This document shows, in pieces, positions 26,485-58,762 of a DNA stretch of 58,762 bases (the first letter of the stretch is position 1; every line of letters starts with the position of its first letter). The stretch comes from Bacillota bacterium. GTDB lineage: Bacteria > Bacillota > DTU025 > JANLFS01. The notes under the pieces are model-generated. The model had not been told where the DNA came from. It saw only the letters and a list, made by a program, of their open reading frames with translations, and made no database searches. Location of the stretch: positions 1-58,762 of the forward strand of contig JANLFS010000005.1 of assembly GCA_024655925.1 (NCBI GenBank), written 5' to 3'. The position numbers and the translations under genes are program-made.

Positions 26485-27546
26485 GTGTTCGACCCGAACG
26501 ACTTCGTGCCGGAGTCGCTCTTTGAGCGCATAACCGCAGTCCGGGTTGACTACCCCGGGGCGATCATGGAGGAAGCACTTGCACGGGGGCGTCGAGAGGT
26601 CCTAGCGCCCGACGGGAAGCTCTGCATTCTCGCGTGCGACCACCCGGCGCGCCGCGTGACCAGTGCTCTTGGTGACCCCACGGCGATGGGGGACCGTCAC
26701 GACTACCTAGGCCGCATACTTCGAGTGATGTCTCATCCGGAGATCGACGGGGTGATGGCCACACCTGACATAATCGAGGACCTTCTGATCGTATCCCACC
26801 TACTCAGGCGGCACCGCGGAGGCGGGTCCTTCCTGGACGGCAAGATATTGATAGGTTGCATGAACCGTGGGGGCCTCGCCGGCACTGTGTTCGAGCTGGA
26901 CGACGCAATGACATCGTACACCGTCGAAAGCATGGTGGCGCATAGACTTGACGCCGCGAAGATGATGTTCCGGCTGGACCCTTCCAACCCGGACTCCCTG
27001 GCCACCATGGTGTACTGCGCCGAGGCCATGAATGCCCTAAACCGGGTGAAGATGCCCGTGTTCCTTGAACCGCTCCCCATAGAGAAGACCGACTGCGGGT
27101 ACCGGGTGAAGAAGACTTCCCTCGATATGATCCAGACCATCGGTGTCGCGTCTGCCATGGGGGAATCCACGGCGAGGCTCTGGCTCAAGATCCCCATCGT
27201 GCCGGAGTTCGAGAGGGTGGCACGGTCGACCACACTTCCCCTTCTGCTCCTAGGTGGCGAATCCTCGGGCAATCCCACCGAGGTCATTCGCGAATTCCGC
27301 CGGGCCTTGAACGCGGGGGCGAACGTGAGGGGCGCACTGATCGGCCGGAACGTGCTTTACCCGGGTGATGTCGACCCGCTAGGGGTGGCGCTCGCCATAA
27401 GCAGGATGATTCACCGCGGGTATTCTGCGGACCAGGCCATAGCCGAGATAAACGAGGTGGCGGGTTTCGGTCGGGATCTCTACCGGATGGAGTCAGCTAC
27501 CCCACGGCTAAAGCCGGAGGCTTGCGATAAGCAAGCCTGGAGCTGA
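26485..27546 (+). CDS. class I aldolase-like (DeoC/FbaB, Cgl0159-type) TIM-barrel protein
   Basis: LCILACDHPARR, DGVMATPDIIEDLL, VFLEPLP, LKIPIV, LLLGGES resemble the DeoC/LacD aldolase superfamily. The last ~17 codons (ATPRLKPEACDKQAWS) look foreign (see the IscB-like relic finding). Confidence 0.5.
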   Translation: MFDPNDFVPESLFERITAVRVDYPGAIMEEALARGRREVLAPDGKLCILACDHPARRVTSALGDPTAMGDRHDYLGRILRVMSHPEIDGVMATPDIIEDLLIVSHLLRRHRGGGSFLDGKILIGCMNRGGLAGTVFELDDAMTSYTVESMVAHRLDAAKMMFRLDPSNPDSLATMVYCAEAMNALNRVKMPVFLEPLPIEKTDCGYRVKKTSLDMIQTIGVASAMGESTARLWLKIPIVPEFERVARSTTLPLLLLGGESSGNPTEVIREFRRALNAGANVRGALIGRNVLYPGDVDPLGVALAISRMIHRGYSADQAIAEINEVAGFGRDLYRMESATPRLKPEACDKQAWS

Positions 27547-27547
27547 C

Positions 27548-27825
27548 CAGCCTCAGCTCATCGGCCGTAAGGCCTTCGGGCTACGTTATTCAGGTCATGA
27601 CACCCTGGGATGCGTGCCATTTCCAGGCTCTGTCGCTCGGCATTAGACAGGCATACCGACCGGATAGCCGTCCGGCATAGGCCCTGTTTCAAGTTGAACG
27701 GCTTCGACGTGCATCCAAAGTACCTGCGGCTGCTTCAAAAAGCCGATGGATACGAGTATACCCAGAAAGGGGGAAGCGGCGTCTCCTCCCCACGCCTGAA
27801 GGCGGGAGCTCCCGACGCCGCGTAG
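27548..27825 (+). pseudogene. C-terminal relic of an IscB/HNH-type IS200/IS605-superfamily protein
   Basis: The listed ORF 27610-27825 ends RIAVRHRPCFKLNGFDVHPKYLRLLQKADGYEYTQKGGSGVSSPRLKAGAP. From memory this matches the IscB tail (..VAVR..GSF.I....V.GI..RYC.LLQRADGY.Y followed by a ..PP.LKAG.. tail). No HNH or RuvC body is present. Confidence 0.3.
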
Positions 27826-27829
27826 GCTG

Positions 27830-28867
27830 GTGGTGGACCGCGGTGACGTCACTGACGAAACGCTTCTCCGCCTCATAAGAATCGTGAATCTGCTCCGGAC
27901 TGCCCCAGATGGCATGACCTTGGCGGAACTCGCCGAGAGGTGCGGTGTCCCCGCTGCGCTGGTAAGGGAGGACCTCATCAGGCTCTCCGAGTACTGCCGC
28001 GCGCCCCTCGTCAGCAGCCTGGACGCCCCCGACGCCCACGAGGATTCAAGCCCTGAAGAAGAAGTGTGGAGCCTCGCGTCCACTTACTTCTCCTTTCCGA
28101 TCACGTCACTTTCCAGGGGTGAGGCTTTGACACTCCTTCGCATCCTGAGGCGGGCGGATGGGGAGTCCGCCGCAGCTTCCGCCAGGAAGAAGGTGGAGCG
28201 CAGCCTCGACCTGACGAAATCTCCAGCTGAGGTGGATCGTGCCCTGGGTCGGAGAGTCGTGAAGACCGGCAGGACCATGTACGGCTCCGGGCAGGAGGAG
28301 TCCAGACTCGATGCTTTGGAGAAGTTCGCGTCCGACGGGACCGCTCTTTCGATCATTTACGAGGATACCCGTGGCCGCCGCACAGAAAGGGATACCTGCC
28401 CTGCCGCGCTAGTGTACGACTGGCGCACGTGCGCCTGGTACTTGTACGGTTACAACCCGCGAGACGGCGGGTTCCGCCATTTCCGGGTGGACCGGATTCG
28501 GCGCTTCTGGCCGTCTTCGAAGAGCCTCCCGGCGCCGGACTCCGCCGAAGTGGACCGGCACGTTCGTTCGTGCTGGGGGGTGGAGTGCACCGGCCCTCCG
28601 GTTGCGGTGGCTGTCCGGTTCGCGAACGATTTCAACGTCATCGAAAGGATGCGTGCGGACACAGCTGACAGGCAGTCCGCAACTTACGAAGAGTGCGCTG
28701 ACGGATCTGTCATATACCGCGACATCATGCCCGGGTACAACGAGTTCCGCACTTGGGTGCTGTCCTTCGGCGAGTCGGCGGAGGTGCTGGCTCCGAAGGA
28801 GCTGCGGGACAGTGTGGCCGCAAGTGTCGCCCGGGTGCTCGAACGGTACAGAATCCGGGTGGAATAG
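27830..28867 (+). CDS. HTH-WYL-WCX transcriptional regulator (PafBC/BrxR/CapW-like architecture)
   Basis: N-terminal wHTH (LLRLIRIVNLLRTAPDGMTLAELAERCGV). WYL core (LSIIYEDTRGRRTERDTCPAALVYDWRTCAWYLYGYNPRDGGFRHFRVDRI). C-terminal extension ending SFGESAEVLAPKELRDSV. Confidence 0.8.
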   Translation: MVDRGDVTDETLLRLIRIVNLLRTAPDGMTLAELAERCGVPAALVREDLIRLSEYCRAPLVSSLDAPDAHEDSSPEEEVWSLASTYFSFPITSLSRGEALTLLRILRRADGESAAASARKKVERSLDLTKSPAEVDRALGRRVVKTGRTMYGSGQEESRLDALEKFASDGTALSIIYEDTRGRRTERDTCPAALVYDWRTCAWYLYGYNPRDGGFRHFRVDRIRRFWPSSKSLPAPDSAEVDRHVRSCWGVECTGPPVAVAVRFANDFNVIERMRADTADRQSATYEECADGSVIYRDIMPGYNEFRTWVLSFGESAEVLAPKELRDSVAASVARVLERYRIRVE

Positions 28868-28956
28868 CCCTATCCACGCACGCGCACATCCGCCATTCTG
28901 GGAGTAGCATTCAGGGAGGTTGATGCAGGCCCTATCCACGCACGCGCAGATCCGCC
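28867..28956 (+). repeat. two 28-nt direct repeats (27/28 identical) with a 62-nt period, possibly degenerate CRISPR repeats
   Basis: GCCCTATCCACGCACGCGCA(C/G)ATCCGCC at 28867-28894 and 28929-28956. The core CCACGCACGCG resembles the CCACGCGTGTG core of the intact repeat at 29011. The 62-nt period fits a 29+33 type I-E unit. Confidence 0.5.
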
Positions 28957-29010
28957 CCGTGCTTCGTCCACTTGTCCTGAAGACCCATAGAGTCATCAAG
29001 TCCACGTCTC

Positions 29011-29039
29011 GTTGTCCCCACGCGTGTGGGGGTGAACCG
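29011..29039 (+). CRISPR. single intact type I-E-like CRISPR repeat (orphan; no cas genes in the window)
   Basis: GTTGTCCCCACGCGTGTGGGGGTGAACCG is 29 nt with a CCCCAC/GTGGGG hairpin. It is very close to the Thermus thermophilus I-E repeat GTAGTCCCCACGCGTGTGGGGATGGACCG as I recall it. Confidence 0.6.
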
Positions 29040-29298
29040 GCCATAGTGCCTATCTGAAGCCCGGGCTACACCTGTGCCTCTGGGCTTCAGTCGTGTTTTT
29101 GGGCACTTCCACGCGACGAGGAAGGAAAATGCGATTAGGCGGAGAAATACTTAGATCTGACGACCATGGAGCCCCTAATCGTGAAGAATCGTGCGTATTC
29201 CCCATAGATAGTCAAAATCGCCGAGTTTTCATGGATGACCTCGAGAGGCTCACGGTCCTGTCGAACCCGCGTGCCGCGCGGGACCGGGAGGCACGGCT

Positions 29299-30498
29299 TT
29301 GGAAGCCATTAGAATCATTCACACATCCGACCTGCACTTAGACTACACCCTCACTGACTACAGGCGGGAAGTTCGAGCCATACGCCGGGCGGAACTCATC
29401 GAGGCTTTCAATTTCCTCGTCGATGAGGCGATCCGGGCTGAGGCGAAGCTTTTCGTAATCGCAGGGGACCTTCTCTGCGCGGAGTCGGTGGCGGACACGA
29501 CCATGGGGGTGGTTCGTGCCGGGTTCGCCCGCCTCATGAAGGCGGGCACTTACGTCGTCCTCGTGCCGGGGGAGGCGGAGGAGGGGTGCGGCCTCGATGC
29601 ACTGCAGGAGGTGGCCTGCGAAAGCAATGTGCACCTGTTCGCAGGAGAGGAGTGGGCCAAATTCACCCCGTTTCCTGAGTTCACAGTGTACGGCCTGCGA
29701 ACTACGGGTAGGAACGCCGGTTCGGCGGTGCTTGCGAACCTGGCAATCGAGGGCCCTGGCCGCCACATGGGTGTGATGCATGGGACGTTCTCAGGGACCC
29801 CCGGGTTCGAAAAGCCCCTATCCCCGGTTTCCTCTGAGGACCTGTCTGCAGCGGGCCTGGATTACCTGGCGTTGGGCCACTACCACAACATGGTGAACTG
29901 CTCCGTTGGCCGGGCGACATGTTGGTACTCGGGTGCCCCGGCACACCACGGGTTCGACACGAGGGGAGAGCGGCACGCCCTCCTAGTCACCTTCAGGGAC
30001 CAAGGCACAAGAGTCAGCCCGATCAAGGTCCCCAGCCGGGCGCAGCGGGTCATATGTGTGGACGTGACAGGGAAGTCCAAAGACCAGCTTTTCGCCAGGC
30101 TCAAGAGCCTCGAAAGCGAGGATCTGTGTCTCAAGGTTGAGCTCCAGGGACACTTGGACGAAAGAGACGCATCAGTCCCTCGGGAACTCGTCGAAGAGTT
30201 CTCTGGCCGGTTCTTCCACCTGGAGGTGGTGGATAGGACTGCTGTTGGACTGGGCAGGCGGGGGCGACGCGCGGAACGGCCCCAAGGTTCTGACCTGGGA
30301 CCTCCTGTTCGGGCATTTCTCCGGAAGGTCACAGAGATCTCGTCCGGGGCTCGGAGTGCGAGCGGGGCTTTCGGGGATGTGCCTGCTTCTGTGCTCGCGC
30401 GAGCGGTGAAGTATGGCCTCTCGGCGCTGGGGGAGGTGCGAGGGATTGAGAATCGAGAAGCTGGCGATTCAGGGAAGGGACAAGTACCCCCTGCTTGA
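29299..30498 (+). CDS. SbcD/Mre11-family (YhaO-like) metallophosphoesterase with a degenerate motif III
   Basis: Motif I IHTSDLHLD, motif II IAGDLL, motif IV VMHGTFSG and motif V LALGHYHN are present. Motif III reads VPGEAEE instead of GNH(D/E). TTG start behind GGGAGG. Confidence 0.7.
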   Translation: MEAIRIIHTSDLHLDYTLTDYRREVRAIRRAELIEAFNFLVDEAIRAEAKLFVIAGDLLCAESVADTTMGVVRAGFARLMKAGTYVVLVPGEAEEGCGLDALQEVACESNVHLFAGEEWAKFTPFPEFTVYGLRTTGRNAGSAVLANLAIEGPGRHMGVMHGTFSGTPGFEKPLSPVSSEDLSAAGLDYLALGHYHNMVNCSVGRATCWYSGAPAHHGFDTRGERHALLVTFRDQGTRVSPIKVPSRAQRVICVDVTGKSKDQLFARLKSLESEDLCLKVELQGHLDERDASVPRELVEEFSGRFFHLEVVDRTAVGLGRRGRRAERPQGSDLGPPVRAFLRKVTEISSGARSASGAFGDVPASVLARAVKYGLSALGEVRGIENREAGDSGKGQVPPA

Positions 30499-32839
30499 GC
30501 TCGAGTTCGCTCCTGACTTCTCGCTGATACTCGCGCGGGACCCCGAGATTCGGAGGCTGGTGGTTGGCGCTCTGGAGTCGTTGGGATCCCAAGGCGGGGC
30601 GATGAAAGACCCTGGCACGGCTGTGCGTTCAGCTGTGACCGTGGTAGATGAATCCGACCGCAAGCTCATGTTCGTCCGTGACTTCCTGTCAGGCGGCGGC
30701 CTGCGTGTCGTAGACCTGGACACCGGCCTCGAGGCACGTCCCCCTGAGCGGGTTGCCGAATCCCTTACGCTGCTCGATCGGGAGTTCGGCAAGCTAGACG
30801 GCAAGAAGGTGATCGGCAGGATCCCTCTCTCGGAGCTTCTGGGGGACGACGGTGTGAGGCTTGCAGGCGCTGTAGATATCATTGATGCAAGGATCGCCTC
30901 GGTGGAGTCACACCGCAAACCCGGGGCTGCCGATGTCCGCAATCGGATCTCTGAGATACTCTCGATGCGCGCGCGACGTGACGAACTCAGGGAGAGGTTG
31001 ACTTGGCTTTCGGAGCGCATCGTCTACCTGGATTCGCGGATCTCCTATATCGACCAGGCCTTGCGTGCGCATGCGGAGCGCAAAGAAATCGAGGAGTACA
31101 TAGCCAGGCTCAAAGCAGAGTTCGATACTACGAGGAAAAGGCTTTCCGACGTGACCTCCGCGGAGACATCCCTCGCCACGGCCAAGGCAGCGCTGAAAGC
31201 ATTTTGCGGGCGGGAGAGCGCGTTTGACCCGTCGATTGCATCTGAGATCCGGGCGCTCCAGAACACTCTGGGACCCCTGGAGAGGCAGGCGGTGGAGCAG
31301 GAGGCCCAGCAGTCCCAGTGGTCCGGGCGGTTCACCCGCCTCAAAGCGGATCTGGCATCGGTTGTGCAAAGCTTGGAGGAGATGGACTCGGCGAGGCTTT
31401 CGCGGGAGACGGCGGGACAGATCCAGTCACTCGCCATAAGCGTGGAGGAGCGCGAACTCCGTCTCGCGTCGCTCGAGGAGAGTATCGCCGCTCTCGACCG
31501 GGCTCTGCTCCGCCAGAGGCTCTGTGAGGTGCTGTCGCTCTCCGGCGGGATACTGACTGTCCTCTGTGTACTCGGATTCCTTTCGCCCGGCCGAAGCTTC
31601 TGGCTGTTCGGCCGGGCGATTCCAGGTAATCCGCTGCTCTTTGCGGGGCTCGCCACAGGTGTGGCTGCAGCAGCCATCGGCCTCATGGGCGGGGCGAGAC
31701 TCGAAGCGAAGCACGAGGCCAAGGAGAGATTGGAGAAGGAGAGAACAACCCTCTGGCGGCAGTTGGGTTGGAGCCGCCAGCAGTTGGCAGTGGTCCTGGG
31801 GGGCCACAGCCTGGAGCAGTACATGGCTGACCTCGAGACCCATAGGCGTCTGGTCGAAAGGAGGGCCGAGCTCGAGAAGTCCGTGGAGGCGGCGGGGATC
31901 GACCTGACTCGGGCGCGGAACGAGGCCGACCTCCTCAGGGTACGTATCCAGCGGTGCCGGGAGCGGCTCTCTGAGCTCCTGCGGATCGTGGGGTTCAGTT
32001 CATCCGCTAAGTACCTCGAGGAATGCGAGCACTACCGCAGAGTGGAGCTCGCAGCGGAGGAGGCCGCGGCAAGGCTCCGCTCGGTCCTGGGGAACCGGTC
32101 CAGGTGGACGCTGGAGACGGATCTTGAGATCATCGTGGAAGAGATCGCGTCTGCCGAGGCGGAGAGGGATGCACTTGCGGACCCCAAGACATCTGAGCGT
32201 GTCATGGATCTTGTGGAGGAGTACGCGCTCAAGATAACAGAGCGGATGGCGCTCGCCCGTGAATCGGAGATGGGCGCCGCTGAACTCGCCCGAATTGAAC
32301 AGGACCTGAGCGGTCTGGATATGTGGGAGCTGGCGAGCGATGCGGCGGAACTCGAGAAGGACGAGAGCGAACGCGGCGAAGACCGTGCTGCCCTCTCCAT
32401 CGCTCGTCTGATCCTCCTGGAAGTGATGGAGGACGCGGGCTCCTTTGCCGGGGCCAAGCTCGCTTCCCTGACTTCGGACATTCTCGATTTCATGACTGGG
32501 GCCGCGGGGCACCGGGTGGCTCATCGGATTGAAGGCGACGAGTTGGTGCTCACCATTGATGAGCAGGACGCGGATACGTTGGTTCGCGCCGCTCTCGCCG
32601 CAAGGCTCGCGGCGAGCGAGTGTGCGAACGGGCATGGGGTTCACCCCCTGCTGCTAGTGTACCCGCCACTACAGGCAGGTGTATGCAAGGGCAGAGCAGG
32701 GAGGCGCACTCAAGACGTGGCGAGACAGATACTTCCCGCGCTCAGAAAGCTTGCCCGCACCCGGCAGGTGATATGGCTCGCGGAAGGGGTGGACCTGGAA
32801 GAAGCCTTCCCAGAAGGCCAACCAGTCAATATCATCTGA
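30446..32839 (+). CDS. Rad50/SbcC/YhaN-like long coiled-coil protein lacking Walker A/B, with a central double TM hairpin
   Basis: The N-terminus (M)RIEKLAIQGRDKYPLLELEFAPDFSLILARDPEIRRL aligns to SbcC/YhaN heads, but the P-loop G-x4-GKS/T is replaced by ARDPEIRR. The C-terminal head has HPLLLVYPP where hhhhDE is expected. Two hydrophobic helices lie at about nt 31521-31700, flanked by long heptad-rich regions. The TTG at 30446 behind GGGAGGTG is preferred over ATG 30413. Confidence 0.6.
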   Translation: MRIEKLAIQGRDKYPLLELEFAPDFSLILARDPEIRRLVVGALESLGSQGGAMKDPGTAVRSAVTVVDESDRKLMFVRDFLSGGGLRVVDLDTGLEARPPERVAESLTLLDREFGKLDGKKVIGRIPLSELLGDDGVRLAGAVDIIDARIASVESHRKPGAADVRNRISEILSMRARRDELRERLTWLSERIVYLDSRISYIDQALRAHAERKEIEEYIARLKAEFDTTRKRLSDVTSAETSLATAKAALKAFCGRESAFDPSIASEIRALQNTLGPLERQAVEQEAQQSQWSGRFTRLKADLASVVQSLEEMDSARLSRETAGQIQSLAISVEERELRLASLEESIAALDRALLRQRLCEVLSLSGGILTVLCVLGFLSPGRSFWLFGRAIPGNPLLFAGLATGVAAAAIGLMGGARLEAKHEAKERLEKERTTLWRQLGWSRQQLAVVLGGHSLEQYMADLETHRRLVERRAELEKSVEAAGIDLTRARNEADLLRVRIQRCRERLSELLRIVGFSSSAKYLEECEHYRRVELAAEEAAARLRSVLGNRSRWTLETDLEIIVEEIASAEAERDALADPKTSERVMDLVEEYALKITERMALARESEMGAAELARIEQDLSGLDMWELASDAAELEKDESERGEDRAALSIARLILLEVMEDAGSFAGAKLASLTSDILDFMTGAAGHRVAHRIEGDELVLTIDEQDADTLVRAALAARLAASECANGHGVHPLLLVYPPLQAGVCKGRAGRRTQDVARQILPALRKLARTRQVIWLAEGVDLEEAFPEGQPVNII

Positions 32840-57731: not shown

Positions 57732-57932
57732 CAAAGCTGACTTGAAAATAGGAAACGGAAACGCTATGAAGAGGAGCAGTAGGGCCTGACGGGCTCCAAG
57801 AGAGCCGGAGGAGGGTGCGATCCGGCAGCCTCGAGGTTCCAAACTCGCCTCGGAGCGGCGCGGGTGAACTTCTCAGTAGCTCGCGACGGGACTCACCGTT
57901 ATACGGTTTCAAAGATGCGCCACGCATTTAGT

Positions 57933-58008
<76 letters not shown>

Positions 58009-58061
58009 TTCTCATGTATGGGTGGCGTGCGTACCAGGGTGGTACCGCGAACAGAGATTCG

Positions 58062-58091
58062 CCCCTGGCAGTTGATCTGCCAGGGGTTTTT
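58062..58091 (+). terminator. T-box expression-platform terminator
   Basis: CCCCTGGCAG-TTGAT-CTGCCAGGGG + TTTTT. Its 5' arm CCCCUGG is shared with the antiterminator helix (CCAGGG...CCCUGG). Confidence 0.85.
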
Positions 58092-58095
58092 CTGG

Positions 58096-58762
58096 GTACG
58101 CCTGGCATGGAGCTATGTCTACAGGGTGAAAGTCCCGAGCGGCGAAGGCGGCAGTAGCCATAGCTCAAGGCAAGGGTGTCCGCCGCGAGGCGGAATCTGA
58201 AGGAAGCCGGCGGCAAACCTCCGGCCCGACGAACAGAAACCCCATACAAGGCCAGGGACAGTTGGATGAGCTTGCCTAGCAAAGCGAAGTCCTTGCCGCC
58301 GAAGGCTGCCCAGGGTAGATGGGGCGGGTAGATGGAGGGAAAGACATAGTCCTTATCCAGGGAGGCCTGCCGGGAACGCTGGAGAATCCGGCAACCCGCG
58401 TCGGAAGGCGCGGCTGAACCGGCAGGAGTCAGCAGAGGCCATACTACCCGGAGGCGGCGCCGCGTCCGGGGAAGGGCCGAACGTGAGACGAGGGTGTGAA
58501 ATGCCGAGCTCGAGAGAGGGACGCCGACAGCCGAATATCCCGCAATGGAGCTGCCTGCGGAAGGATGCGGCGAATCCGCAAGGGGCCGCGGGAGCGCCTA
58601 GTTCCTCTTCGGCGCGAAGCATGGAGCGACCCTGCGGGAGATCTGGGGGAGTGATGGAACTCATCATTGAACCGGCCAATGCGAAGGCAGCCCTCAAGCG
58701 AGTGGAGCGAAACCGGGGGGCAGCTGGTCCTGATGGCATGGCGGCGGAGGTCCTCCGCCGCC
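58096..58762 (+). mobile_element. group IIC intron (domains I-IV, 3' part beyond the window)
   Basis: GUACGCCUGGCAUGG, AGGGUGAAAGUCCCGAGC, GGGUGUCCGCCGCGAGGCGGAAUCUGAAGGAAGC, GGAUGAGCUUGCC, GGGAAAGAC and CAGCAGAGGCCAUACUACCC follow the Oceanobacillus iheyensis IIC intron sequence as I remember it. It begins 5 nt after the terminator U-tract. Confidence 0.8.
58654..58762 (+). CDS. group II intron reverse transcriptase/maturase (N-terminal 36 codons, 3' partial)
   Basis: MELIIEPANAKAALKRVERNRGAAGPDGMAAEVLRR matches the ..A..RV..NKGAAGVDG.. RT-0 motif. ATG behind GGGGGAG. Confidence 0.8.
   Translation, partial: MELIIEPANAKAALKRVERNRGAAGPDGMAAEVLRR

What the first reader, a model, noticed from the sequence alone, without database searches (positions are those of the whole stretch)
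27830..32839. WYL-WCX regulator followed by an Mre11/Rad50-like pair in which both catalytic cores are degenerate and the Rad50-like protein carries a membrane hairpin
The 399-aa SbcD/YhaO-like protein keeps phosphoesterase motifs I, II, IV and V, but motif III GNH(D/E) reads GEAE, so the Asn metal ligand and the catalytic His are lost. The ~800-aa partner has the SbcC/YhaN head-coiled-coil-head layout. Its Walker A is replaced by ARDPEIRR and its Walker B by LLLVYPP. Two hydrophobic helices interrupt the coiled coil where Rad50 and SbcC have the zinc hook. Together this predicts a membrane-tethered, ATPase-dead scaffold rather than a canonical DSB-processing nuclease. The upstream HTH-WYL-WCX regulator belongs to the architecture that controls DNA-damage regulons (PafBC) and defence systems (BrxR, CapW). 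The neighbourhood holds CRISPR and IscB relics. A damage- or phage-responsive function is conceivable but unproven.
Basis: partly seen in the sequence, partly recalled or inferred. Interest (0 to 1): 0.6.

Follow-up and report, generated by a model that had tools for sequence, protein, structure and literature searches.

The report
ATPase-dead membrane-anchored Mre11/Rad50-like pair
An uncultured group of Bacillota keeps, next to DNA-damage-type WYL regulators, an extra membrane-anchored copy of the SbcE/SbcF (Rad50/Mre11-like) repair pair that has lost every ATP-handling motif and the key nuclease histidine yet is still preserved by selection, so it probably works as a non-enzymatic scaffold.

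Summary
Window 27830-28867 encodes an HTH-WYL-WCX regulator. Window 29299-30498 encodes an Mre11/SbcD-fold protein whose motif III GNHD reads GEAE. Window 30446-32839 encodes a Rad50/SMC-fold protein with no Walker A, signature, Walker B or H-loop, and with two central hydrophobic helices.

The pair is not the lineage's ordinary YhaO/YhaN. The same genome also carries an intact SbcCD and an intact YhaO/YhaN. The central hairpin is not new: every YhaN/SbcE homologue I examined has it. Profile comparison places both proteins in the YhaO/YhaN (SbcF/SbcE) lineage.

The degenerate pair occurs in 14 of the 21 species genomes of this class. It was not found in about 380 other genomes of the phylum, and has only 13 hits among 1.84 billion representative proteins. 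dN/dS is 0.08-0.26.

In the main family (f4), an ECF-type sigma factor and two WYL paralogues lie directly upstream in 10 of 10 loci with enough upstream sequence. The sister family f3 has an intact compact pair instead.

My best reading is a WYL-controlled, membrane-tethered, ATP-independent DNA-end or protein scaffold; this function is inferred. It is a new variant of a known kind. Earlier notes of this scan describe similar dead YhaN-type pairs in other phyla.

The parts
27830..28867 (+). WYL1: HTH-WYL-WCX transcription regulator, 345 aa
   Evidence: Pfam finds WYL, WCX and HTH domains. PADLOC WYL models match at E 9e-28. The nearest solved relatives are DriD 8tp8 and PafBC 6sj9. Orthologues of 50-57% identity lie directly upstream of the pair in 10 of 10 f4 loci. 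dN/dS is 0.10-0.18.
29121..29154 (+). Conserved bipartite element GA[AG]GG[AG]AA-N12-G-NN-GAA-N7-G upstream of the SbcD-like gene; candidate operator or promoter
   Evidence: It is the only invariant block in an alignment of 11 otherwise diverged intergenic regions from five genera. It lies 179-181 nt before the start codon in three genera. Its function is inferred.
29299..30498 (+). D: YhaO/SbcF-type Mre11/SbcD-fold phosphoesterase, 399 aa, with motif III GNHD changed to GEAE (nt 29569-29580)
   Evidence: hhalign to this genome's own YhaO gives prob 98.6, E 6e-16. hhalign to the intact f3 homologue gives prob 99.4, E 2.7e-21. dN/dS is 0.08-0.20.
30446..32839 (+). CC: YhaN/SbcE-type SMC-like protein, 797 aa, lacking all ABC-ATPase motifs. 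The Walker A position (nt 30533-30556) reads ARDPEIRR; the Walker B position (nt 32648-32668) reads LLLVYPP.
   Evidence: The gene overlaps the D gene by 53 nt. dN/dS is 0.10-0.26.
31529..31690 (+). Coding region of the central two-helix hydrophobic hairpin (residues 362-415 of CC)
   Evidence: Kyte-Doolittle means are 1.95-2.15, and the hairpin is conserved in 13 of 13 orthologues. AF2 predicts helix-loop-helix with a low-confidence loop at residues 383-393. hhalign places it on the hairpin of YhaN.
27492..27829 (+). Multi-copy ~337-nt repeat with a HEARO (IscB omega-RNA-like) core, inserted directly before WYL1. It is not part of the system, but it explains why the second WYL gene is missing here.
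   Evidence: Rfam RF02033 scores 75.7 bits, below its gathering score of 83, at E 5.5e-15. At least 10 copies occur in the genome. Contig C155, which carries sigma-WYL2, ends 55 nt into this same repeat.
28867..29040 (+). Lineage-specific insert between WYL1 and D: two 28-nt direct repeats (28867-28894, 28929-28956) and one solitary type I-E CRISPR repeat (29012-29040)
   Evidence: The insert is absent from the 12 orthologous intergenic regions.

Best explanation
Shown. The two genes are a third, lineage-restricted Mre11/Rad50-type pair of the YhaO/YhaN (SbcF/SbcE) kind. The large subunit keeps the family architecture: split head, two long antiparallel coiled-coil arms, and a two-helix membrane hairpin at the apex. 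It has lost Walker A, signature, Walker B and H-loop. The small subunit keeps the Mre11 fold and six metal ligands, but has Glu-Ala where the Asn metal ligand and the catalytic His sit.

Inferred. The two proteins still form an Mre11(2)-Rad50(2)-like complex. This rests on overlapping genes, a conserved C-terminal helix on D, and a conserved coiled-coil base on CC. The complex hangs from the cytoplasmic face of the membrane. It cannot run the ATP-driven clamp-and-cut cycle. It would instead act as a passive, membrane-tethered binder of DNA ends, ssDNA or partner proteins.

Also inferred. The upstream PafBC/DriD-like WYL heterodimer, with an ECF-type sigma factor, probably sets expression through the conserved element about 180 nt upstream of D. 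That would make the pair part of a response to DNA damage or foreign DNA.

Evolutionary picture. The class ancestor had two YhaON-type pairs. Family f3 kept only the compact one, intact. Families f1, f2 and f4 kept the canonical pair, and the compact one lost catalysis.
For: - Motif losses are shared by all 13 orthologues and confirmed against solved Mre11 and against YhaN.
- Fold: Mre11/SbcD for D; Rad50/SMC for CC.
- Homology of CC to YhaN: full length prob 98.2, E 4e-14. N-head alone E 1.7e-5; C-head alone E 4.5e-7. Crossed controls give nothing. The A2 profile also hits the C-heads of YhaN-type ATPases in other families directly, at E 1e-10 to 1e-18.
- D is nearer to YhaO (E 6e-16) than to SbcD (E 3e-6).
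- The hairpin is present in 10 of 10 YhaN homologues. The SbcE paper reports a hydrophobic, insoluble central domain (PMC2811018).
- Intact SbcCD and YhaON are in the same genome. Canonical YhaN is in the same 14 of 21 genomes.
- Purifying selection: dN/dS 0.08-0.26.
- Conservation is inverted relative to an ATPase: the N-head has 0 of 130 columns at 90% or above, while the second coiled-coil arm has 30 of 204.
- Both WYL genes lie upstream in 10 of 10 f4 loci. The block M42 x2-3, radical-SAM/SPASM, ECF sigma, WYL2, WYL1, D, CC is conserved.
- The WYL proteins are closest to DriD and PafBC.
- The f2 orthologue of D has lost 5 of 7 metal ligands, so catalysis is dispensable there.
- Tree: the degenerate D clade groups with the intact f3 clade, away from YhaO + SbcD, with support 91/80.
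Against: - No experiment exists for any member, and the organisms are uncultured MAGs.
- In 12 of 13 orthologues, D11, H13, D57, H161, H194 and H196 stay conserved. Metal binding, and perhaps a residual or altered hydrolytic activity, may therefore still matter.
- Complex formation and membrane insertion are predictions only. No multimer model or dedicated TM predictor was available.
- The regulatory link rests on gene order and one conserved DNA element, not on binding data. The f2 genome has the pair without sigma or WYL genes.
- Synteny of the whole block could reflect slow rearrangement rather than function.
- The tree join of the two long branches carries a long-branch warning.
Confidence: 0.55

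Rival explanations
1. Membrane-tethered nuclease or phosphodiesterase. D is still a metal-dependent hydrolase in which Glu92 replaces the Asn ligand and another residue takes over the role of the lost His. CC serves only as an ATP-independent membrane anchor and DNA-binding arm.
For: Six metal ligands are conserved in 12 of 13 orthologues despite about 50% overall divergence. Glu can coordinate metal. The solved P. furiosus Mre11-H85S is deposited as bound to branched DNA and manganese (3dsd, hit 2). Motif III always reads G-[ED]-[AS]-[ED]-E, a conserved acidic pattern rather than random decay.
Against: The f2 orthologue has lost D11, H13, D57, H161 and H196 yet keeps an intact ORF beside its partner.
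Confidence: 0.2
2. Anti-phage or anti-plasmid defence module. The WYL proteins act like BrxR/CapW repressors, and the Rad50-like protein acts as a sensor of foreign DNA ends, as LmuB does in Lamassu.
For: WYL1 matches PADLOC WYL models at E 9e-28. The CC model resembles LmuB and JetC among other SMC proteins. A solitary CRISPR repeat and an IscB-type RNA relic flank WYL1.
Against: PADLOC gives no hit for D and only coiled-coil-level hits for CC, with E at 1e-4 or worse. No effector is present. The locus sits in a conserved metabolic and housekeeping block and is present in 14 of 14 genomes of three families in the same gene order, the opposite of the patchy distribution of defence islands. The CRISPR repeat and HEARO element occur only in this genome's locus.
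Confidence: 0.1
3. Modulator of the canonical SbcE/SbcF complex. The dead subunits co-assemble with the intact YhaN/YhaO of the same cell, through hairpin, coiled coil or heads, and tune or inhibit it.
For: The degenerate pair and canonical YhaN co-occur in the same 14 of 21 genomes. Family f3 lacks both and has a single intact compact pair.
Against: The pattern amounts to a single phylogenetic contrast. The arm lengths differ (797 aa against about 970-1035 aa). The pair has its own dedicated D partner, which is conserved with it.
Confidence: 0.1
4. Decaying duplicate genes (pseudogenes in progress) with no function.
For: Catalytic motifs have been lost in both proteins.
Against: Full-length ORFs are intact in 14 genomes of 7 genera. 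dN/dS is 0.08-0.26 at dS 0.6-2.9. Confident AF2 folds were obtained.
Confidence: 0.02

Closest known systems
Bacillus subtilis SbcE (YhaN) / SbcF (YhaO), Pfam AAA_27 + Metallophos (Krishnamurthy et al. 2010, PMC2811018)
   Same: Adjacent SbcD-like and SMC-like genes. Head / coiled-coil / hydrophobic central hairpin / coiled-coil / head layout, with no CxxC zinc hook. Profile-profile homology of both subunits.
   Different: SbcE keeps recognisable Walker A, Walker B and signature motifs, and YhaO keeps GNHD; here all are lost. CC is shorter (797 aa against 963-1035 aa). It gets no AAA_27 hit. It coexists with a canonical YhaON in the same genome and is linked to WYL regulators.
Intact compact YhaO/YhaN-type pair of sister family f3 (unnamed; e.g. 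G002:C31, G014:C9)
   Same: It is the closest relative of D: hhalign prob 99.4 over 357 columns, including the C-terminal helix, and sister in the tree. Sizes are similar (374 + 870 aa). It has a central hairpin.
   Different: It keeps GNHD, NESGKST, LSQGTKDQ, FFDD and LSH. No WYL or sigma genes are nearby, and the neighbours differ.
Mre11-Rad50 / SbcCD
   Same: Fold of both subunits. Phosphoesterase motifs I, II, IV and V. Gene pairing.
   Different: No ATPase motifs, no zinc hook, no motif III Asn-His, and a membrane hairpin at the apex.
PafBC (Actinomycetota) and DriD (Caulobacter): WYL-domain DNA-damage regulators
   Same: HTH-WYL-WCX architecture. Two adjacent paralogues, like PafB and PafC. 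These are the best solved-structure matches.
   Different: Sequence similarity is only distant (E 1e-4 to 1e-7). WYL2 has a roughly 100-aa longer linker. The genes lie behind an ECF-type sigma gene. Ligand and regulon are unknown.
Lamassu LmuB/LmuC and Wadjet JetC (SMC-like defence proteins)
   Same: SMC/Rad50-like fold.
   Different: Those are active ATPases with effectors and a patchy distribution. Here there is no ATPase, no effector, and vertical inheritance.

Membership tests
Mre11/SbcD nuclease (calcineurin-like phosphoesterase) | Mre11 nuclease plus capping-domain fold | tested here: met
   The AF2 model (pLDDT 76) gives Foldseek E 7e-15 to 1e-12 against Mre11/SbcD structures.
Mre11/SbcD nuclease (calcineurin-like phosphoesterase) | Motifs I (DxH), II (GD), IV (H) and V (GHxH) | tested here: met
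   D11/H13, D57, H161 and H194/H196 are conserved in 12 of 13 orthologues.
Mre11/SbcD nuclease (calcineurin-like phosphoesterase) | Motif III GNH(D/E): Asn metal ligand plus catalytic His | tested here: not met
   It reads G-E-A-E here and G-[ED]-[AS]-[ED] in all 13 orthologues. It aligns to GNHD of T. maritima Mre11 and of this genome's own YhaO.
YhaO/SbcF | Closer to YhaO than to SbcD, and encoded directly upstream of a YhaN-type gene | tested here: met
   hhalign gives E 6e-16 against YhaO and 3e-6 against SbcD. The gene overlaps CC by 53 nt.
Rad50/SbcC/SMC ABC ATPases | Split head joined by a long antiparallel coiled coil | tested here: met
   AF2 secondary structure and Foldseek hits to Rad50, Smc5/6 and MukB.
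Rad50/SbcC/SMC ABC ATPases | Walker A GxxxxGK(S/T) | tested here: not met
   ARDPEIRR sits at the aligned position. No orthologue or distant family member has a P-loop.
Rad50/SbcC/SMC ABC ATPases | Signature LSGG-like motif, Walker B hhhhDE/DD, and H-loop | tested here: not met
   The aligned positions read xxLAARLA, PLLLVYPP and RQVIWLAEG.
Rad50/SbcC/SMC ABC ATPases | CxxC zinc hook or hinge at the coiled-coil apex | tested here: not met
   The apex is a two-helix hydrophobic hairpin.
YhaN/SbcE (Pfam AAA_27, PF13514) | Match to the AAA_27 model | tested here: not met
   hmmscan finds no hit at E up to 1. A genome-wide PF13514 search finds this genome's YhaN and SbcC but not this gene.
YhaN/SbcE (Pfam AAA_27, PF13514) | Profile-level homology over both heads | tested here: met
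   hhalign gives prob 98.2 end to end. N-head alone gives E 1.7e-5 and C-head alone E 4.5e-7; crossed controls are negative.
YhaN/SbcE (Pfam AAA_27, PF13514) | Central hydrophobic (membrane) hairpin | tested here: met
   Present in 13 of 13 orthologues and in 10 of 10 YhaN homologues. Actual membrane insertion is not testable here.
PafBC/DriD-type WYL regulators | HTH + WYL + WCX domains | tested here: met
   Pfam finds them in WYL1 and WYL2.
PafBC/DriD-type WYL regulators | Two adjacent paralogous subunits | tested here: inconclusive
   They are adjacent in 9 f4 loci and appear fused in one reading frame in one. In this genome WYL2 is on contig C155, which ends inside the same repeat that precedes WYL1. 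Reads could not be checked.
PafBC/DriD-type WYL regulators | ssDNA or ligand sensing and control of damage genes | not testable with these tools
   Only a conserved upstream element was found.
Known anti-phage defence systems (PADLOC) | Match of the core proteins to a defence-system model, and patchy island-like distribution | tested here: not met
   No hit for D. CC gets only weak coiled-coil hits to LmuB and DruC, at E 1.6e-4 or worse. Synteny is conserved in 14 of 14 genomes.

The most novel reading that the evidence does not exclude
The sigma-WYL2-WYL1-D-CC block is a signalling device. The catalytically dead, membrane-anchored Mre11/Rad50-like complex would act as a receptor for DNA ends or ssDNA at the membrane, for example incoming or broken DNA. 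It would pass that signal to the PafBC-like WYL heterodimer and/or hold the ECF-type sigma factor in the manner of an anti-sigma factor. A repair machine would thus have been converted into a sensor.
Probability: 0.1. Interest if true: 0.8.

Novelty: new variant of a known kind. Interest (0 to 1): 0.5.

Why it matters
SbcE/SbcF (YhaN/YhaO) is the least understood of the bacterial Mre11/Rad50-type machines, and its membrane hairpin has hardly been discussed in the literature. This locus offers a natural dissection of it. One small bacterial class holds three versions: the canonical pair, an intact compact pair (f3), and a version of the compact pair that lost ATPase and nuclease chemistry yet stays under selection and is wired to PafBC/DriD-like regulators. 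If the dead pair is a scaffold or sensor, part of what these complexes do is independent of ATP and cutting. It would also link WYL damage regulators of Bacillota to a defined target. Earlier notes of this scan report comparable dead YhaN-type pairs in several other phyla (not checked here). If they hold, repeated conversion of this machine into a pseudoenzyme would be a general phenomenon worth a dedicated study.

Tried and rejected
- The word-indexed homologue search with CC returned only the query itself.
- Exhaustive phmmer gave only 13 hits, all P-loop-less where I inspected them.
- hhalign of the CC profile against single YhaN or SbcC sequences was uninformative (prob below 2). It became significant only against a YhaN alignment.
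- PADLOC, NCBIfam and Pfam gave only coiled-coil noise for CC.
- I considered that the pair was the ordinary YhaON orthologue. I rejected this after finding the intact one split over contigs C161/C175.
- I considered a recent duplication of the canonical YhaO. The tree puts D with the f3 clade instead.
- A genome-wide search for the upstream element gave 7 hits against 0.4 expected. Most are plain purine-rich ribosome-binding sites (for example before PPDK), so no regulon can be claimed.
- The consensus promoter/terminator scan found nothing useful near the operon.
- The literature search for WYL with SbcC/SbcD found no description of such a locus.
The WYL2-repeat-WYL1 junction and transcription therefore could not be checked with reads.
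- No multimer prediction or dedicated TM predictor was available.

Full report
**Anatomy.** The window is contig C188 of a 3.2-Mb, 62% G+C metagenome-assembled genome. Record titles of relatives name only uncultured Bacillota/Clostridia MAGs, such as UBA5389, UBA1393, UBA10085 and DTU025.

Three co-oriented genes match the finding:
- WYL1, 27830-28867;
- an SbcD-like gene D, 29299-30498;
- a large coiled-coil gene CC.

The gene call on record for CC (797 aa) and the sequence (TTG at 30446, preceded by GGAGG) place its start at 30446. D and CC therefore overlap by 53 nt. The flanks are metabolic. Pyrimidine biosynthesis genes, a sugar-phosphate isomerase-like gene and a Cgl0159-like gene lie upstream. 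An N-heterocycle catabolic cluster lies downstream.

WYL1 has HTH, WYL and WCX domains.

For D, a 13-sequence profile aligned to T. maritima Mre11 puts PGEAE on PGNHD. Motifs I, II, IV and V are intact. The AF2 model of D (pLDDT 76) hits Mre11/SbcD structures only, at E 1e-13 to 1e-14.

CC has no ABC or AAA domain hit. Its AF2 model (pLDDT 80) shows beta-rich half-heads at both ends, about 550 residues of helix, and a central helix-loop-helix. The best structural matches are Rad50, Smc5/6, MukB and LmuB. Two 19-residue windows with Kyte-Doolittle means of about 2 occur at the midpoint in all 13 orthologues.

**What it is related to.** The SbcE/YhaN paper describes a unique hydrophobic, insoluble central domain with no CxxC hook (PMC2811018). 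I collected ten YhaN homologues from the phylum. All have an intact G-x-N-E/R-x-GK-T/S and a central hydrophobic segment.

hhalign of the CC alignment against this YhaN alignment gives prob 98.2 and E 4e-14 from end to end. Hairpin lies on hairpin. Coiled coils can inflate such scores, so I repeated the comparison with heads only:
- N-head: E 1.7e-5;
- C-head: E 4.5e-7;
- crossed controls: nothing.

The alignment places ARDPEIRR on NEAGKTT, PLLLVYPP on LPLIMDDIL, and RQVIWLAEG on QVLFFTCH. Nothing corresponds to LSRGTxEQL.

Independently, the CC profile hits the C-heads of YhaN-type ATPases in seven other families, at E 1e-10 to 1e-18. One of these carries GKTT, LSTGTRDQ and FLDD.

D is nearer to this genome's YhaO (prob 98.6, E 6e-16) than to its SbcD (prob 88, E 3e-6).

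**Not the ordinary orthologue.** The same genome has two further pairs:
- SbcD plus SbcC on C202, with GNHD and GPTGSGKT;
- a canonical YhaO (GNHD) followed by YhaN. The first ~70 residues of YhaN (GPNESGKT) end contig C161. Its remaining 902 residues (hairpin, LSHGTEQQ, PVIVDD, FTCH) begin contig C175. The two pieces abut in register.

**Distribution and selection.** The class holds 21 species genomes in the collection searched. The degenerate pair is in 14 of them: f1 (own genome), f2 1/1, f4 12/12, f3 0/7. Canonical YhaN is in the same 14.

A sample of about 380 further genomes of the phylum has no member. Exhaustive phmmer over 1.84 billion representatives finds 13 proteins, and those I inspected lack a P-loop.

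Pairwise dN/dS values:

| Gene | dN/dS |
|---|---|
| D | 0.08-0.20 |
| CC | 0.10-0.26 |
| WYL1 | 0.10-0.18 |

Conservation within CC is the reverse of that of an ATPase. The N-head has no column at 90% or above. The second coiled-coil arm has 30 of 204.

In the f2 orthologue of D, five of the seven metal ligands are replaced (HTSNLCLD, AGGII, LLYGT, GHYE). In the other 12 orthologues, all ligands except motif III are kept.

**Family f3.** Its genomes carry a compact, fully intact YhaO/YhaN-type pair. The small subunit (374 aa) has GNHD. The large subunit (870 aa) has NESGKST, LSQGTKDQ, FFDD, LSH and a central hairpin.

The D profile matches the f3 protein better and longer than it matches canonical YhaO: prob 99.4, E 2.7e-21, over 357 columns including the C-terminal helix.

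In a PMSF maximum-likelihood tree, three clades are each strongly supported: degenerate D, f3 D and YhaO. The split {degenerate D + f3 D} against {YhaO + SbcD} has support 91/80, with a long-branch warning.

The simplest reading is two ancestral YhaON-type pairs. The compact one stayed active where it is the only one (f3). It lost catalysis where the canonical one persists.

**Regulators and block.** tblastn shows WYL1 directly upstream of D in all ten f4 loci with enough sequence. A second, longer WYL paralogue (HTH, long linker, WYL, WCX; about 415-445 aa) lies directly upstream of WYL1. Both are closest to DriD and PafBC among solved structures.

Clustering of flanking ORFs shows a conserved block: M42 peptidases (2-3), a radical-SAM/SPASM protein, an ECF-type sigma factor, WYL2, WYL1, D and CC.

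In this genome, the part from M42 to WYL2 lies on contig C155. That contig ends 55 nt into a ~337-nt multi-copy repeat. The repeat's core matches HEARO, the IscB-associated RNA, at 75.7 bits against a gathering score of 83 (E 5.5e-15). In the window, this same repeat directly precedes WYL1. WYL2 is therefore most likely still upstream, separated by that insertion, and the assembly is broken or mis-joined there. Reads could not be consulted.

The f2 genome has D-CC directly after the radical-SAM gene, with no sigma or WYL orthologues.

The WYL1-D spacer is otherwise unconserved. It contains one invariant bipartite element, GA[AG]GG[AG]AA-N12-G-NN-GAA, lying 179-181 nt before D in three genera. 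This is a candidate operator or promoter. A genome-wide search did not define a regulon.

**Mechanism, mostly inferred.**

What is shown:
- the architecture;
- loss of every nucleotide-binding motif;
- an altered nuclease motif III;
- purifying selection;
- linkage to WYL genes.

What is inferred:
- D and CC still assemble. The genes overlap, and the D C-terminal helix ALKxGLxALGE and the CC coiled-coil base SWLxER are conserved.
- The hairpin inserts in the membrane with both arms cytoplasmic.
- The complex binds DNA ends, ssDNA or partner proteins without ATP-driven clamping or processive cutting.
- The WYL pair switches it on in response to a nucleic-acid signal.

A residual, altered hydrolytic activity of D cannot be excluded.

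A defence role is unlikely. There is no effector, no match to a defence model, and a vertical, syntenic distribution.

**Novelty.** I found no paper describing such a locus.

Earlier AI notes of this scan report dead or degenerate membrane-anchored YhaN-type proteins in Hydrogenedens, Chloroflexota, spirochaetes and CPR bacteria. They also report a WYL-linked intact pair in Dormibacterota. I did not test those. They suggest that this is one more case of a recurrent theme rather than a one-off.

I class it as a new variant of a known kind, the SbcE/SbcF family. What sets this case apart is coexistence with both canonical machines, an intact sister pair in the same class, and a PafBC-like WYL pair with an ECF-type sigma factor.

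Noticed in passing
window 29012-29040; genome contigs C5, C11, C55, C65, C148, C150, C170, C211, C214: A perfect 29-nt type I-E CRISPR repeat (GTTGTCCCCACGCGTGTGGGGGTGAACCG) stands alone in the WYL1-D spacer. The genome has true arrays of it (C145, C147, C221, C161, C214). It also has about 10 solitary copies with unrelated flanks, one beside a scaffold gap. These could be real solo repeats or assembly joins through the repeat.
   Followed up: partly
window 28867-28894 and 28929-28956: Two 28-nt direct repeats (27/28 identical) lie 62 nt apart, starting at the last base of the WYL1 stop codon. They are unique in the genome and absent from orthologous loci.
   Followed up: partly
window 27492-27830: A ~337-nt element with a HEARO (IscB omega-RNA-like) core (75.7 bits, below Rfam's gathering score of 83; E 5.5e-15) is present in at least 10 copies in the genome, several at contig ends. 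The listed 71-aa ORF 27610-27825 lies inside it and is probably not a gene.
   Followed up: partly
G000 contigs C161:1-1481 and C175:22187-24895: The canonical yhaO-yhaN operon is split by an assembly break inside yhaN. The two contig ends abut in register.
   Followed up: yes
L020:4652-7045 (G003): In one relative, WYL2 and WYL1 lie in a single 797-codon open frame. This is a possible natural PafB-PafC-like fusion, as in the solved fused PafBC.
   Followed up: no
window 57757-58477: A T-box leader match (57757-58069) has a tRNA match nested inside it (57933-58005). Group II intron domains D1-D4 follow at 58179-58477.
   Followed up: no
L103:6303-10036 (G002), L104:6120-9865 (G014): Family f3 carries a compact intact YhaO/YhaN-type pair (374 + 870 aa) that my YhaN query missed at E 1e-8. 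It is the closest active relative of the degenerate pair and a natural control for experiments.
   Followed up: partly
G000:C58:~3235 (-): A copy of the bipartite upstream element lies 186 nt before the dnaG-like primase gene, a distance similar to that before D. It may be chance.
   Followed up: no
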